Origin: the human T2T-CHM13v2.0 reference genome, Homo sapiens
NCBI RefSeq assembly: GCF_009914755.1
Contig: NC_060928.1
Length of the DNA stretch: 64,000 nucleotides
Reading direction: 5' to 3' (one strand)
Shown here: positions 4,713 to 22,970 of the stretch, in pieces
Position numbering within the stretch: position 1 is the stretch's first letter
Layout of the letters: each line of letters opens with the position of its first letter
The notes under the pieces: generated by a model
Seen by the model: the letters and a program-made list of their open reading frames with translations, nothing else
Database searches by the model: none
Told to the model about the DNA's origin: nothing
Made by a program: the position numbers and the translations under genes

Positions 4713-4779
4713 AGGAAAGTGGGGATGGGGACTCTTTTTTGCCAGACCTGACCCATAACTGGTAATCTTTCTCAGCACC
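4713..4779 (-). pseudogene. ARHGAP20-like exon F (RA domain)
   Basis: ttgtctttaag|GGT GCT GAG AAA GAT TAC CAG TTA TGG... gives GAEKDYQLWVRSGKKESPSPLS*, versus recalled ARHGAP20 GSERDYQLWVNSGKEEAPYPLI. Donor degenerate (TCC-TAAGTG, GT lost), creating an in-frame TAA. Confidence 0.85.
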
Positions 4780-5635
4780 CTTAAAGACAAAATGAACTAA
4801 TAAGAATTACAACAAATCTTTCACAGTAAATATTTGAAGAGGATCACACTTCCTTAGGATTTCTACATTTTCAGAAAGGAAAGGAACTAGGACCAGTCAA
4901 AATGCAATTTTATCTATGGGGCTGGCCATGGTTTTTGAGTTAACAGGGCTGATTTCAGTAACCCCTGTTTTCCACCCAGCTTCTAATAAACTATTCCAGA
5001 TTCTTGCCTTGTCCCTTTTGAAAGGCCATGGATCTGTGAAACCACAGTGCAATCAATCCCTCACTTTCTGAGTGACCCATGGAATACAAAATCACATATA
5101 CACTCCCTCACTAAAAAAGAAAAGGCTAGCTGGGGAGTCATGCTTTCTGCTATACAGACTTTTTGGAGAATGTTGAACTTTGCCTTCACATCTCCCTGCC
5201 CAGACAAGCCTGTTGCACAGACAGCGATACATCCACATGGAAGGCATCAGAAGCTCATTAAACCTGAGCACAAAGAGACAAATGCCCAAGAGGTCTTGAA
5301 GAGATGTGAGAGTGAAGTCAGGCCTCTGGCTTTCATTCAGATAAGCCCTACTGTGGGGAGAGAAGGGACAAACACTGACCTGGGGACCAGGCCAGATGCA
5401 AAGAACAATTATCCACAGCAGAAGTATTGCCCAGCAATACTGGCAATCTTGCCACAGACATATCTAAATTATGTAGAATGCTGAATTATTGTAAATAGTC
5501 TTTCAAGAAAGGCTAAAGCGAAAGCATGTTTCAAATGGAGTTATTCTTGATAAGCGCTATGATTGCCCTTCATTCCTTAATAAAAATCATGGCCTTGTCC
5601 TTATGGAGTGTCCTAGGTAGGGAGGCTCTCTGCCT

Positions 5636-5704
5636 TTCTGTCTCTCTCTCTCTCATGCACACACATGTACACGCACACACACAGACAGAGAGAGAGAGAG
5701 AGAG
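5636..5704. repeat. Compound microsatellite (TC)n-(CA)n-(GA)n
   Basis: tctctctctc...cacacacatgtacacgcacacacac...gagagagagagagag seen directly. Confidence 0.9.
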
Positions 5705-5827
5705 CATATTTTCTCAAAATTGTATTGCAAATAGGGAGTAAGATCTAATAAAAATCTTTTAATGTAAAGTTTGGAAGCGTTCTGTTGAAATCCCTTAAGT
5801 CAGGTATACATATCTAGCCAAATAACC

Positions 5828-6128
5828 TTTTTTTTTTTTTTTTTTTTTAAACAGAGTCTCGCTCTGTCACCCAGGCTGGAGTGCAGTGGTGTGATATCGG
5901 CTCACTGCAGCCTCCGCCTCCTGGGTTCACGCCATTCTCCTGCCTCAGCCTCCTGAGTAGCTGGGACTACAGGCGCCCGCCACCACGCCCGGCTAATTTT
6001 TTGTATTTTTAGTAGAGACAGGGTTTCACTGTGTTAGCCAGGATGGTCTCGATCTCCTGACCTCATGATCTGCCCGCCTCGGCCTCCCAAAGTGCTGGGA
6101 TTACAGGCGTGAGCCAACGCGCCCGGCC
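5828..6128 (-). mobile_element. Alu (AluY-like)
   Basis: Poly-T then antisense Alu ending gcccggcc; gggttcacgccattctcc and ttagccaggatggtctcgatc are Y-type features; TSD ataacct. Confidence 0.95.
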
Positions 6129-6303
6129 ATAACCTCAATTCTTGATTGCAATAGGATTCCTTTGTTGTCTAGTAAGACTGGTCATTTTTTAAAAAAGGAA
6201 AATCACAAACCTGAAATAAATTAAGCTACATTTTATTTTTAATTAATCTCCCCAATCCCACACCTAAAACCACTTGCTGTCTTCAAGACAAGATTACATT
6301 CTT

Positions 6304-6621
6304 CTTTTTTATTCTTTTTTTTTTTTTTTTTTTTTTGAGACAGAGTCTTGCTCTGTCGCCCAGGCTGGAGTGCAATGGTGCAGTCTCGGCTCACTGCAAC
6401 CTCTGCCTCCCAGGTTCAAGCAATTCTCCTGCCTCAGCCTTCCCAGTAGCTGGGATTACAGGTGCCCCCTACCACGCCTGGCTAATTTTTTTTGTGTTTT
6501 TAGTAGAGGCAGGGTTTCACCATGTTGGCCAGGCTGGTGTCGAACTCCTGACCTCAGGTGATCCACCCACCTCGGCCTCCCAAACTGCTGGGATTACAGG
6601 CGTGAGCCACCGTGCCCAGCC
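6304..6621 (-). mobile_element. Alu (AluS-like)
   Basis: Full antisense Alu; TSD caagattacattctt at 6289-6303 and 6622-6636. Confidence 0.95.
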
Positions 6622-19581: not shown

Positions 19582-19933
19582 ATGTCCTTTGTAGGGACAT
19601 GGATGAAATTGGAAATCATCATTCTCAGTAAACTATCGCAAGAACAAAAAACCAAACACCGAATATTCTCACTCATAGGTGGGAATTGAACAATGAGAAC
19701 ACATGGACACAGGAAGGGGAACATCACACTCTGGGGACTGTTGTGGGGTGGGGGGAAGGGGGAGGGATAGCTCTGGGAGATATACCTAATGCTAGATGAC
19801 GAGTTAGTGGGTGCAGCGCACCAGCATGGCACATGTATACATATGTAACTAACCTGCACATTGTGCACATGTACCCTAAAACTTAAAGTATAATAATAAT
19901 AAATAAATAAAAGAAAATAAATAAATAAATAAA
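19582..19933 (+). mobile_element. Young 5'-truncated L1 3' end (L1PA2/3-like) with A-rich tail
   Basis: Near-consensus L1 3' UTR; gctagatgacGAGttagtggg carries the GAG diagnostic (not Ta ACA); (taaa)n tail. Confidence 0.93.
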
Positions 19934-21364
19934 AGTCATAATTTTATTGGAAAAACAACTTTCTATTTATCATTCTAATGAATATAAAGAGTAATCATGA
20001 AGTCCTCATCTGACTTTAATATTTGAGAGCAGAATTTTCTAATGTAAAAATTATGGTAAAAACTTGTACAAGGTGGTAGCATTCAGTGCTGATAGCCACT
20101 TTCTCAAAAAATCTGTTTTCTCTATCTCAAAGACCTTGGGCTTACAAACCAATTTCAGATGTTTTAGATGACTTACACTTTCTAATAATCCCAATGAATG
20201 TAAAATGTATATAAAAATGATCTTTCAGGAACAGCACATCTTAAACAAGGATATTATTAAATAACTTTATATATATTTCATCACATCATGAAAACATTTG
20301 CGTGGATACAAAGAACTATCTCAAAGCAGTATTCAAAAAATGAAAAATGTTGCACATGTGTGTAATAATGAGCCAAGGAAAATAAAAATTCAGCTCTTAA
20401 ATATATGAAATTTTCTAGCAGAAAGGGAACATTGTCTTTATAGGAAATGTCTTTAGCAAAATACTACGGGTTCTATAAAACCCATTAACGGGTTATCAGT
20501 GTCTAGGACATAAATGGCTTCTGGTAAGAAAATTAAGGTCTACTCTCCCTAAATACTATCATAATTACAAAGGTTAAGAAAAAAGAAGTAGAGTAAAACA
20601 TGTGTCCCTTAAAAATCAAACATGAGTGGTCACAAGGTCCTAAGAAGCAGAGAATGAGAACTCCAGTTGCTTGTTTATCTCTCAGGCTGAGCATGGTTGG
20701 TTACAATGAGGGGTAGCAGGAAGAGCACAGCCTTGGACTCCAGTCCAAGGAACTCCAGTCTCTCCTGCAATTTCCCAGTGTTTGACCTTGGGCCACTTAC
20801 TGTTCCTTTCTCAGCCTCCATTTTCATATCTAAAACCTCGAGATGATAATACCTGCCTTGGAAGGCACTTTGGAAAACTAGGTGAGCCCTCGGTGATGTT
20901 TCTAGTATGGTCCTGTGAATCTCTCCAGTAAATTTTAGTTTCCTATATGTACTTACTTGGGTTAAATACAGAGAATGGTAACTAATCTAAAAATATTTCT
21001 CAGTAGTAACTTATTCTCTATCAGTGGCTCTTTCAGGGCACTTCACTTGGACCTCACGCCCAGACCTAGATAATCTTCTGTTCTCTTTATGACCTCACCA
21101 GCTTGACAGTTACATATTTAGGCAATTGCACTCATCCAAAATATATTTTATTATCTTCATTTTTGTCTCTGACTTTTTTTCATAGCTGGACTTCTCATTC
21201 ATTTCTCCAGTCACTGTGCAATCTGCTCCATTTTTTACTGCATACCAAGCAGATGCAAGTTGGTCTTTTACTCACGGCAAGGGAAAGGTTGATTTTGCTG
21301 GTAAGAGAAAAACCAAATAGTTGTGGAATCTTCTATAAAATCCAAAAGAAAAGAAATAAAGAAT

Positions 21365-21640
21365 AGAGGCAGGAGCACTACATGTTGGGTAACAGCCTGT
21401 GCTTTGAAATAAACAGATCGAATTTCAAATGTGAACTCCACTAACTAATAATGTGGTGACCTGGGGGAAGCATTAGACCTCTGAGCCTCAAGGCCTTCTG
21501 TAAAACACGGAAAATAGCCCCATCTCAATCTCACAAGAGCAGCTGTAAGGATTAGACAAGATTGGGCACATAAAGTCCTTAGCATAAGACCTGACACATA
21601 ATCTGCCCCTGATAAATCATACCTATCATTACTGTCACCC
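21365..21640 (+). mobile_element. MIR SINE
   Basis: MIR core-like (tgtggtgacctgggg...ctctgagcctca...ctgtaaaa...gtaaggatta). Confidence 0.7.
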
Positions 21641-21949
21641 TGGTTAAATATGGCATTTACAAATATTATCACTTGATCTTGCATATCTTATCTATGACAC
21701 AGATTAATTGGAAACCAGGATGAGGGCAGCAGAGAAAAGGTGTTTCTTTCTTCCTTTTTTTTTTTTTTTTTCCACCCTGGTGATGACAAAGCTTTGTGAT
21801 GAGATTTTATGTGTTGAAATATTATTTGTTTTCATGATATTTTATAAATATTGAAAACAGAAATGTAGCAGGTAAACAGATGGCCATCCATTCAGTTCTT
21901 TCCATCTCCCTGATGTCAGATATTTCTTAAGAAATCACCATTTTTCTAA

Positions 21950-22690
21950 TATTGCATTTGTGTTCCGTGTGGAGAGGAAAGTACCTGCAATTGGTTCTGC
22001 CTCCAACATAGATTCTAATTCTGCCTTCTGCATCATTCGTTTCTATTGTTGCTCCCAACATAGAGCCATTGTCATCATATTTCAGAACAATTGCCTCCCT
22101 AACTAGTCTCCCTGCTTCCACTTTTCCTTGCCCTCCAATCCGTTATCTACCAACAGCCAGAACAATATACGAAAAATATTTACCAGATTTGGTCATTCCC
22201 CTACTGACCCTTCAGAATAATATTCCAACCCCTCACTATGCCCTATGAAGACCTGTGTGACCACTCTTGTGTCTGACATCATGTCTCCAGGCATTTGTTT
22301 CCAGTCACATCAGCCTTCCTGGAGCCCCTCCCTCCAAAGGACCAAGCTGCACCCACCATAAGCCTGTTGTCCCCTCAGCCTAGAAGGTTCAGCCACCTGG
22401 TCTAGGAATGCTGCTGCTTCTCATCCCAGAGCTCAGGTTTAAATGTCATCACCTCACAGAGGCCCTCTTGGATGACACCTCTCTTACCCTGTGACATCTT
22501 CTCCACATGGTACCCTATCTGTCTTCTTCTTAGAATCACTATTCACAATCTGCAATTTCCCCTCTCTTAGTTTTATCATCTGTCATTAAGTCCCAGGCAA
22601 AAGGGACCCTGCCTGTCACATTCTTGATGATATTCTCTACAGGGGTGCTGCACACAACAGGACCTCCAAGAATACCTGTTGAGTAAATGA
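21950..22690. mobile_element. L2 LINE fragment
   Basis: L2-like (ctccctaactagtctccctgcttcca...aaatgtcatcacctcacagaggcc...tgttgagtaaatgaa). Confidence 0.65.
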
Positions 22691-22817
22691 AGGATCAAGG
22701 CATTTGCAAAAGCAGAAGAAAAAATTATATTTTCATATAGTAAGGATTAATGAAAATGCAATTTGTTAGTAAAAATGCATCTTATGATAATCAGGAGAGC
22801 ATGTCATGTATATGTAC

Positions 22818-22970
22818 TTGCTATTAGACACAAGCAACAAATCGTTAAACAGAAAGAGGTGCCACTTCTGCCTCCTCCAGCCTCTTTTGAGTTCTACAGA
22901 GCCATAGATTGGCAGGGTACAATTGGCACCCTTCTCACTGTGGGTGTCCATCTCAGAAAAAGAGCTTTTC
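22818..22970 (-). pseudogene. ARHGAP20-like exon A (PH domain start), 153 nt, phase 2-2
   Basis: ttgcag|G AAA AGC... gives KSSFSEMDTHSEKGANCTLPIYGSVELKRGWRRQKWHLFLFNDLLLVSNS(K)|gtacat, versus recalled RTLLIDGRAELKRGLQRQERHLFLFNDLFVVAKIK. The LFLFND PH motif is present; frame open; both splice sites intact. Confidence 0.92.

What the first reader, a model, noticed from the sequence alone, without database searches (positions are those of the whole stretch)
4713..22970. Hidden multi-exon ARHGAP20-like (PH-RA-[RhoGAP]) gene relic downstream of MAD2L1
Seen: six minus-strand exons of 153, 148, 42, 85, 78 and ~67 nt spread over 18 kb, in order, with compatible phases. Only one of them appears in the correct frame in the ORF track. 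Known, from recall: the joined peptide (ELKRGWRRQKWHLFLFNDLL...LGWPMVNFVATF.SSELKECWCSFLERYINLAKEKDHPKNIPLQIF...TNSDTTNDIIDMSL..LGITGAEKDYQLWVRSGK) follows the PH and Ras-association domains of ARHGAP20, a Rap1-activated RhoGAP whose gene is elsewhere. Inference: an old intron-retaining paralog, too diverged for a recent segmental duplicate. Its exons have almost no internal stops, suggesting long purifying selection then recent loss, so it is a candidate unitary pseudogene still intact in other mammals. I cannot tell whether it is already annotated.
Basis: partly seen in the sequence, partly recalled or inferred. Interest (0 to 1): 0.85.

Follow-up and report, generated by a model that had tools for sequence, protein, structure and literature searches.

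The report
Dead ARHGAP20-like gene beside MAD2L1
Downstream of MAD2L1 lies the broken remains of a Rho-regulator gene that many other mammals appear to keep, but it was lost long ago in our primate ancestors, so this is an ordinary ancient gene loss.

Summary
The six minus-strand exons are real: 153, 148, 42, 85, 78 and 65 nt, at window 22970 to 4715. Two reach Pfam's ARHGAP20 PH-domain cut-off. All six sit at ARHGAP20's intron positions, and the introns still align with the ARHGAP20 locus on chromosome 11.

The gene continues left of the window with four more exons. It is thoroughly dead: two 2-nt deletions, four broken splice sites, two stop codons, and loss of the two exons that encode the catalytic-arginine half of the RhoGAP domain.

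It is one arm of an inverted duplication. The other arm, 83% identical and also dead, lies under LINC02502.

In a tree, both copies and an intronless chromosome 16 copy fall inside a eutherian-wide "ARHGAP20-like" clade (100/100). That clade has predicted full-length proteins in tree shrew, rodents, elephants, sloth, horses, pigs and carnivores. No primate ortholog was listed.

Exons of the two copies have diverged about as much as their introns. One stop is shared, and a shared Alu dates the duplication to early primates.

Synteny in other species and GENCODE annotation could not be checked.

The parts
22818..22970 (-). Exon A (153 nt), start of the PH domain. The ATG at 22951-22949 aligns with Met29 of the snow-leopard ARHGAP20-like protein. 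Acceptor AG and donor GT are intact.
   Evidence: (PF22286 32.9 bits)
16962..17109 (-). Exon B (148 nt), rest of the PH domain. A 2-nt deletion near 17100 shifts the frame relative to ARHGAP20's 150-nt exon. An 18-nt tandem duplication begins at the donor (about 16964-16929).
   Evidence: (PF22286 38 bits)
14255..14296 (-). Exon C (42 nt), end of the PH domain. The donor is destroyed: a 5-nt insertion makes it GC at 14254-14253. The twin copy and ARHGAP20 have GT there.
13015..13099 (-). Exon D (85 nt), linker and start of the RA domain. Both splice sites are intact.
8325..8402 (-). Exon E (78 nt), RA domain. The acceptor is GG at 8404-8403 where ARHGAP20 and the twin copy have AG.
   Evidence: (weak RA)
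4715..4779 (-). Exon F (65 nt, against 67 in ARHGAP20), RA domain. It has a 2-nt deletion near its end and the donor GT is replaced by CT (4714-4713). Read-through meets TAA at 4713-4711.
10771..11053 (-). Alu in intron D-E that is also present at the matching place of the other arm (window -57694..-57397, + strand, outside the window). It was therefore inserted before the inverted duplication.
1..33083 (-). In-window part of arm 1 of the inverted duplication. The whole arm is about window -14232..33083, and its partner arm is at window -84971..-45793 with about 31.5 kb between them.

Parts of the same relic that lie LEFT of the window (negative window coordinates, minus strand, approximate bounds):
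- Exon G at -2356..-2166: open, with a 3-nt in-frame deletion.
- Exon H at -5349..-5173: acceptor lost, in-frame TGA.
- Deletion site at -6024..-5754: about 7.6 kb removed with exons I and J (residues 341-430 of the snow-leopard protein, RhoGAP profile about 6-97, including the arginine finger).
- Exon K at -6270..-6084: last third of the RhoGAP domain, with a TGA at a codon that is also TGA in the twin but AGA in the chromosome 16 retrocopy.
- Exon L at -7573..-7465: open.

Twin copy cp2 (plus strand, -75245..-50020):
- It keeps exons A', B', C', D', E', K' and L' only.
- Its lesions are two stops in A', B' acceptor AA, a 1-nt deletion in D', E' donor TT, TGA and TAG in K', and TAA plus a 4-nt insertion in L'.
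- Except for A', it lies within the span and strand of LINC02502 (-73287..-49608, hub table).
1..3300 (.). L1 sequence filling the part of the F-G intron that lies inside the window. It separates exon F from exon G, which lies left of the window.
   Evidence: L1-type ORF matches; this stretch pairs only with another L1 at window -96517..-92567, outside the other arm

Best explanation
Window 4715-22970, continuing left to about -7600, is the decayed genomic remnant of a eutherian paralog of ARHGAP20. I call this paralog ARHGAP20-like.

Origin and intact form:
- The paralog arose by a DNA-level duplication of ARHGAP20, introns included, before the placental orders split.
- In other mammals it is predicted to encode a protein of about 550-690 residues with PH, RA and RhoGAP domains and an arginine finger.
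- By analogy with ARHGAP20, that protein would be a Rap-responsive GAP for RhoA. This is inferred, not tested.

Loss in the human lineage:
- The gene was inactivated early in primate evolution.
- The dead or dying locus was then copied as an inverted repeat: arms of about 47 and 39 kb, a 31 kb spacer, and 83% identity today.
- Both arms have since decayed neutrally.

Other remnants:
- One arm now lies under LINC02502.
- An intronless chromosome 16 copy shows that the gene was once spliced and expressed in the germ line.
- Nothing here can now make a RhoGAP.
For: Homology and structure:
- Pfam RHG20_PH is above cut-off for exons A and B.
- RhoGAP profile 98-146 matches at C4:123311772-918, minus strand, left of the window (a piece of the same exon scores 29.5 bits).
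- Ten exons are collinear with ARHGAP20's exons, with boundaries at the same places.
- Of 1,572 blastn hits between the chromosome 11 and chromosome 4 stretches, 59 are low-copy. Most of these form two collinear chains, one per copy, running through the introns at 60-72% identity. The rest are scattered matches.

Disablement: -2 nt in B, C donor GC, E acceptor GG, -2 nt and donor CT in F, H acceptor lost plus TGA, exons I-J deleted, and TGA in K.

Second copy:
- 28 inverted low-copy blocks cover 36,623 aligned columns.
- 26,069 ungapped non-exonic sites are 83.35% identical, K80 0.191.

Neutral decay:
- Exons are 86.9% identical over 212 codons. dS of 0.221 is close to the intron K.
- Exons A-E (84.7% over 137 codons) lie within the range of their own non-exonic blocks (12739-28433: 74-86%). 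Exons K-L (91.1% over 75 codons) compare with 89% in their block.

Timing:
- The TGA is at the same exon K codon in both copies.
- An Alu sits at matching positions in both arms.

Orthology:
- Searches returned 'rho GTPase-activating protein 20-like' proteins with PH, RA and RhoGAP domains from many orders: 324 hits at E<=1e-10 with 120 listed, and 150 hits at E<=1e-20 with 120 listed.
- In an IQ-TREE of 50 rows by 375 columns, the ARHGAP20-like clade of 33 rows has 100/100 support. Human cp1, cp2 and the chromosome 16 retrocopy form a clade at 99/97 inside it.
- Forcing the three human relics (cp1, cp2, chromosome 16 retrocopy) together with human ARHGAP20, the chromosome 7 retrocopy and tarsier ARHGAP20 costs 262.5 lnL, p-AU 1.7e-92.
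- The snow-leopard protein has PH at 46-138, RA at 157-233 and RhoGAP at 336-479.
Against: - Synteny of the other species' genes with MAD2L1 could not be checked. Orthology rests on a protein tree alone.
- The other species' proteins are automatic gene models, some flagged low quality, and none has a tested function that I found.
- NG86 dN/dS between the two human copies is 0.55, not 1. I attribute this to method bias and small numbers, but some constraint after the duplication is not excluded.
- The tree joins cp2 with the chromosome 16 retrocopy (99/84), yet the retrocopy has AGA where both copies have TGA. Site patterns are 15, 9 and 4. So either the retrocopy predates the split, or the K-L segment was homogenised later. 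In the second case the shared stop dates the loss less firmly.
- The AU group was named after the tree had been seen.
- Ages depend on substitution rates and an Alu age that I recalled rather than computed.
Confidence: 0.88

Rival explanations
1. It is a lineage-specific duplicated pseudogene of human or primate ARHGAP20 that never had a function of its own, not the remnant of a separate gene.
For: Intron-level similarity to the ARHGAP20 locus. Lemurs and bats do carry their own separate ARHGAP20 duplicates.
Against: The human copies share the derived residues of the eutherian ARHGAP20-like clade and sit inside it (100/100 and 99/97). Holding them with primate ARHGAP20 is rejected (p-AU 1.7e-92). 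dS against ARHGAP20 is 0.61-0.69, against 0.22 between the two copies.
Confidence: 0.03
2. The loss is recent: long purifying selection followed by late inactivation in the human or ape lineage.
For: There is no in-frame stop in the 186 in-window codons. dN/dS between the copies is 0.55.
Against: At least nine lesions, including a 7.6-kb deletion of two exons. A stop shared by two copies that differ at 17% of sites. Exon divergence matches local intron divergence. P(no stop) is 0.17 under neutral decay. No primate ortholog appears among the listed hits.
Confidence: 0.03
3. The relic, or its twin, has been taken over as a non-coding RNA or regulatory element, so it is not merely inert. This is compatible with the main explanation.
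For: The twin copy lies within the span and strand of the annotated lncRNA LINC02502 (hub table). The paper-search listing for LINC02502 shows six papers, one of which, on lncRNA expression in blood cells of tuberculosis patients, names it in its abstract. I read only the listing.
Against: No RefSeq transcript covers the in-window copy (hub table). The two arms show no stretch clearly more conserved than the rest, apart from the K-L block at 89%. Transcription of a pseudogene is common and does not show function.
Confidence: 0.1
4. It is still a protein-coding gene, for example producing a PH-RA-only protein, that annotation has missed.
For: The ATG is conserved with Met29 of the cat protein, and exon A is open.
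Against: The frame breaks early in exon B, and the C donor, E acceptor and F donor are lost. The catalytic half of the RhoGAP domain is deleted.
Confidence: 0.01

Closest known systems
ARHGAP20 (RA-RhoGAP), human chromosome 11 (C11:110.59-110.64 Mb in this assembly)
   Same: Same PH, RA and RhoGAP order, the same intron positions for ten exons, and introns that still align. A 2026 preprint's abstract (PMC13419509; I read the search listing and two passages) calls ARHGAP20 a RhoA-specific GAP downstream of Rap1.
   Different: The relic belongs to a separate clade. It has 74% nucleotide identity and dS 0.61 over 361 codons. No upstream N-terminal exons were found. It is disabled. Intact ARHGAP20-like proteins are about 550-690 residues and do not include ARHGAP20's long C-terminal tail (sizes; the size of ARHGAP20 is recalled).
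Predicted 'rho GTPase-activating protein 20-like' genes of other placental mammals (for example Panthera uncia P0001, 579 aa, and Tupaia chinensis P0027, 586 aa)
   Same: They fall in the same clade as the human relics. They share derived residues in the PH and RA exons: 56-76% identity per exon for HSPs of 28 or more residues that lie within an exon. The exon F HSP, which runs into the intron, scores 51%.
   Different: These are full-length models with all three domains. The human copies are broken. Their chromosomal position relative to MAD2L1 was not testable here.
Classical human unitary pseudogenes
   Same: An unprocessed relic with introns, no intact copy of the same orthology group found in the genome, and intact orthologs elsewhere.
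   Different: Here the dead locus is present twice, as an inverted pair, and it also left a processed copy on chromosome 16.
LINC02502
   Same: It overlaps the twin copy on the same strand (hub table).
   Different: It is annotated as a lncRNA with no stated origin.

Membership tests
ARHGAP20 family (PH-RA-RhoGAP) | ARHGAP20-type PH domain (Pfam PF22286) | tested here: met
   Exons A and B score 32.9 and 38 bits against a cut-off of 27.7, covering profile 4-34 and 38-83. The same exons were found by a genome search with the family.
ARHGAP20 family (PH-RA-RhoGAP) | Ras-association domain after the PH domain | tested here: inconclusive
   Exon E alone gives RA 13.8 bits, below the cut-off of 21. 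Exons D-F do align to residues 142-217 of P0001, which overlap its RA domain at 157-233.
ARHGAP20 family (PH-RA-RhoGAP) | Complete RhoGAP domain with the catalytic arginine | tested here: not met
   Only profile 98-146 is present (43.8 bits, one TGA). The exons for about profile 6-97 are deleted in both copies.
ARHGAP20 family (PH-RA-RhoGAP) | Intron positions shared with ARHGAP20 | tested here: met
   In three-way DNA alignments of ten exons with flanks, exon boundaries coincide wherever the sites survive.
Unitary pseudogene | Disabling lesions in an unprocessed, intron-containing copy | tested here: met
   At least nine lesions, and introns collinear with the parent locus.
Unitary pseudogene | No intact gene of the same orthology group elsewhere in the genome | tested here: met
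   Of 27 PF22286 matches in the own genome, 11 are above cut-off. They are ARHGAP20 (2), the two chromosome 4 copies (4), intronless copies on chromosomes 16 and 7 (3), and one exon each on X and chromosome 6. Both chromosome 4 copies are broken, and both intronless copies read with stops and shifted or missing stretches. The X copy is more distant and was not fully examined.
Unitary pseudogene | Intact ortholog in other species | tested here: met
   Full-length predicted proteins in at least eight placental orders fall in the same clade. They are gene models, not verified proteins.
Unitary pseudogene | Ortholog at the syntenic place (next to MAD2L1) in those species | not testable with these tools
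   No mammalian genome other than the window's own can be fetched here.

The most novel reading that the evidence does not exclude
ARHGAP20-like is an uncharacterised, fast-evolving PH-RA-RhoGAP gene present across placental mammals. It was lost at the base of the primates. Its corpse was duplicated into a large inverted repeat beside the spindle-checkpoint gene MAD2L1, and part of that repeat (LINC02502, and possibly the in-window arm) has acquired an RNA-level or regulatory role.
Probability: 0.1. Interest if true: 0.5.

Novelty: new member of a known kind. Interest (0 to 1): 0.33.

Why it matters
- It adds a clean example to the list of genes that humans lack but many mammals keep: a second Rap-linked RhoGAP.
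- It explains where LINC02502 probably comes from.
- It warns that 'ARHGAP20-like' labels cover at least three independent duplications: the eutherian-wide one, one in lemurs and one in bats.
- Anyone studying ARHGAP20 in dog, pig, horse or rodents should know that a paralog may compensate there but not in humans.

Beyond that it is an ordinary ancient pseudogene.

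Tried and rejected
- A first tblastn of all chromosome 11 ORFs against the chromosome 4 stretch was swamped by L1 and Alu matches. I replaced it with low-copy filtering.
- A greedy HSP-based codon map mis-placed exon E of cp1 and exon C of ARHGAP20. I redid it exon by exon, and only numbers are used.
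- A search for upstream N-terminal exons used the first 140 residues of three ARHGAP20 proteins. It found none upstream of exon A, either in the fetched chromosome 11 stretch (up to 110.68 Mb) or on chromosome 4. ARHGAP20's own first exons may lie beyond what I fetched.
- Literature:
  - 'ARHGAP20' plus 'pseudogene' found 22 papers, 15 of them listed, and none was about this locus.
  - 'ARHGAP20-like', 'ARHGAP20L', 'ARHGAP20P1' and 'GTPase-activating protein 20-like' found 3 papers, none relevant.
  - The main text of the 2010 unitary-pseudogene survey (PMC2864566) has no Arhgap, RhoGAP, 4q27 or Mad2l1.
  - That survey's supplements could not be opened, so the locus may be listed there.
- A piRNA paper (PMC4654475, two passages read) mentions only a mouse Arhgap20 piRNA cluster and is unrelated.
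Only two small X pieces were fetched, so those loci are described only partly.
They are now described inside the entry for arm 1.

Full report
**What is in the window.**
Reading the DNA with its ruler and checking lengths in a script gives these exons:
- A 22818-22970 (153 nt)
- B 16962-17109 (148 nt)
- C 14255-14296 (42 nt)
- D 13015-13099 (85 nt)
- E 8325-8402 (78 nt)
- F 4715-4779 (65 nt)

Of the six ORF pieces sent to Pfam, two pass the curated cut-off of the ARHGAP20 PH-domain family PF22286. Exon A scores 32.9 bits at profile 4-34 and exon B scores 38 bits at profile 38-83. Exon E gives a sub-threshold RA match, and the three shortest pieces give nothing relevant.

**The gene continues outside the window.**
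The window's own genome could be searched. The RhoGAP family PF00620 gave 151 matches genome-wide. One is at C4:123311772-123311918 on the minus strand, about 6.1 kb left of the window, covering profile 98-146 with one TGA.

I fetched 100 kb to the left of the window and 160 kb of the chromosome 11 ARHGAP20 locus. A tblastn with a full-length relative, P0001, then placed ten exons in order:
- A to F lie inside the window.
- G is at about -2356..-2166.
- H is at about -5349..-5173.
- K is at about -6270..-6084.
- L is at about -7573..-7465.

The two exons that encode residues 341-430 of P0001 are missing. These correspond to RhoGAP profile about 6-97 and include the arginine finger. 7.9 kb of the ARHGAP20 locus corresponds to 270 bp here.

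No upstream coding exon was found. The ATG at 22951-22949 aligns with Met29 of P0001.

**It is a genomic copy with introns.**
There were 1,572 blastn hits between the chromosome 11 and chromosome 4 stretches. The 59 low-copy ones include a collinear chain through exons and introns at about 60-72% identity. Three-way alignments of each exon with its flanks show the same exon boundaries as ARHGAP20 wherever the sites survive.

**It is dead.**
The lesions in this copy (cp1), all:
- A 2-nt deletion early in exon B (148 nt against 150).
- A 5-nt insertion that turns the exon C donor into GC.
- Exon E acceptor GG instead of AG.
- A 2-nt deletion in exon F, and its donor changed to CT.
- Exon H acceptor lost, and a TGA inside it.
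- Exons I and J deleted.
- A TGA in exon K.

An L1 fills window 1-3300, inside the F-G intron. The in-window exons have no in-frame stop over 186 codons. A simulation of neutral change at 0.095 substitutions per site gives that outcome in 17% of 20,000 runs, so it carries no weight.

**There is a twin.**
The exon A peptide also hit C4:123242772-123242897 on the plus strand. PF22286 and PF00620 found further exons there.

Direct comparison shows an inverted duplication. Of 239 hits, 28 low-copy inverted blocks cover 36,623 aligned columns, pairing window -14232..33083 with -84971..-45793. Realigned, 26,069 ungapped non-exonic sites are 83.35% identical, K80 0.191.

The twin (cp2) keeps only exons A, B, C, D, E, K and L. 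It has its own lesions: two stops in A, B acceptor AA, a 1-nt deletion in D, E donor TT, a TAG in K, and a TAA plus a 4-nt insertion in L. Apart from exon A', it lies within the span and strand of LINC02502 as given in the hub's table.

**When it died.**
Exons of the two copies are 86.9% identical over 212 codons, with dN 0.123, dS 0.221 and ratio 0.55. The exons are barely better conserved than the surrounding non-coding DNA. Exons A-E are 84.7% identical, against 74-86% in the non-exonic blocks that hold them (12739-28433). Exons K-L are 91.1% identical against 89% in their own block. I read this as neutral decay of both copies since they split, with the sub-unity ratio within what the crude method and small sample allow.

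Both copies have TGA at the same exon K codon, where ARHGAP20 has AGG. An Alu at 10771-11053 has its counterpart at the matching place of the other arm, -57694..-57397 in opposite orientation. Four other Alus that I placed against the blocks are arm-specific, and an older partial Alu near 13559-13688 also appears to be shared. So the duplication happened after Alus began to spread, which I recall as roughly 65 million years ago.

The divergence of 0.095 per arm, at recalled rates of 1 to 2.2e-9 per site per year, suggests roughly 45-65 million years. These dates are inference from recalled calibrations.

**A fossil transcript.**
C16:53357716-53360793 holds an intronless copy. It carries the ARHGAP20-like residues, lacks exons C-E, and still contains the I-J region. 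The gene was therefore once spliced and expressed in the germ line, before the I-J deletion.

This copy has AGA where both chromosome 4 copies have TGA. The tree joins it to cp2 (99/84). Informative sites split as follows:
- 15 group cp1 with cp2.
- 9 group cp2 with the retrocopy.
- 4 group cp1 with the retrocopy.
- In exons K-L alone the split is 9, 2 and 1.

The order of events around the duplication is therefore not resolved. Later homogenisation of the K-L segment is possible, and it would weaken the shared stop as a dating mark.

A separate intronless copy on chromosome 7 derives from ARHGAP20 itself.

**What it was.**
A search with the exon B peptide, asking for longer proteins, returned two 'rho GTPase-activating protein 20-like' proteins from snow leopard and dingo. 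A search with the snow-leopard protein gave 324 proteins at E<=1e-10, with 120 listed. They come from carnivores, horses and rhinoceros, pig, hippopotamus, deer, alpaca, elephants, sloth, tree shrew, mole, bats and several rodents.

I chose 45 of the 121 proteins then held. The choice was by hand, to cover the orders and ARHGAP20 proper, leaving out near-duplicates, fragments and most birds. I added five human rows read from the genome. The IQ-TREE run (LG+G4, 375 columns) shows the following:
- An ARHGAP20-like clade of 33 rows at 100/100, arising within mammalian ARHGAP20.
- The major sub-clades recovered are a laurasiatherian clade (100/98), an elephant clade (100/100) and a rodent clade (96/99).
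- Human cp1, cp2 and the chromosome 16 copy form a clade at 99/97 inside it.
- The mouse-lemur and bat '20-like' proteins are separate duplicates of ARHGAP20 proper.

Forcing the three human relics together with human ARHGAP20, the chromosome 7 retrocopy and tarsier ARHGAP20 is rejected (lnL difference 262.5, p-AU 1.7e-92). I named that group after seeing the tree.

A search from the tree-shrew protein gave 150 hits at E<=1e-20, with 120 listed. The only primates listed were a tarsier ARHGAP20 isoform and mouse-lemur proteins. The one of these that was in the tree (P0084) fell in the separate lemur duplicate clade, and the other (P0130) was not placed.

The snow-leopard and tree-shrew proteins have complete PH, RA and RhoGAP domains.

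By analogy with ARHGAP20, the intact gene probably links Rap signalling to RhoA inactivation. A 2026 preprint's abstract calls ARHGAP20 a RhoA-specific GAP downstream of Rap1 (PMC13419509; I read the listing and two passages). That function for ARHGAP20-like is inferred, not shown.

**Comparison and novelty.**
This is an unprocessed pseudogene of the unitary kind, present twice, with a processed sibling. My paper searches found nothing that describes it. GENCODE could not be consulted, so it may already be annotated. RefSeq has nothing at the in-window copy (hub table).

**Verdict.**
- Interest is modest.

Noticed in passing
L004 = G000:C16:53357716-53360793, minus strand: Intronless (processed) copy of the ARHGAP20-like gene. 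Its PH domain lies in one open frame (77.9 bits). It lacks exons C-E, keeps the RhoGAP exons that both chromosome 4 copies have lost, and is itself frameshifted and carries stops.
   Followed up: partly
L005 = G000:C7:16978605-16981706, minus strand: Processed pseudogene of ARHGAP20 proper. It carries ARHGAP20-type residues and groups with ARHGAP20 in the tree.
   Followed up: partly
G000:C23 (X) 64289265-64289390 and 64273022-64273162, minus strand (L034, L035): A PH-like exon (31.7 bits, one TAA) and an open RhoGAP exon (35.4 bits) lie 16 kb apart on the X chromosome. They are much more distant from ARHGAP20 than the chromosome 4 copies and may be another family relic or an unrecognised gene.
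   Followed up: partly
G000:C6:160341327-160341425, minus strand: A PH-like exon of the ARHGAP20 type (29.2 bits, one TGA) lies about 55 kb upstream of RhoGAP exons at C6:160284760-160287113. I take those to be TAGAP from recall. It may be a remnant of a lost PH-RA part of that gene.
   Followed up: no
window 30781-33138, and window -84980..-82747: An element of about 2.4 kb is present in both arms. It is 70-75% identical to C11:110676515-110678303 but in the opposite orientation to the gene chain, with long ORF-level similarity (E 3e-33). It is probably an old transposon and not part of the gene.
   Followed up: no
window about 16929-16964: An 18-nt tandem duplication starts exactly at the exon B donor, giving two GTAAGA donors in a row. 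It is absent from the twin copy and from ARHGAP20.
   Followed up: yes
proteins P0084, P0095, P0114 (mouse lemur) and P0041, P0047 (bats): Proteins labelled 'ARHGAP20-like' in mouse lemur and in phyllostomid bats are independent, lineage-specific duplicates of ARHGAP20 proper. They do not belong to the eutherian ARHGAP20-like clade.
   Followed up: partly
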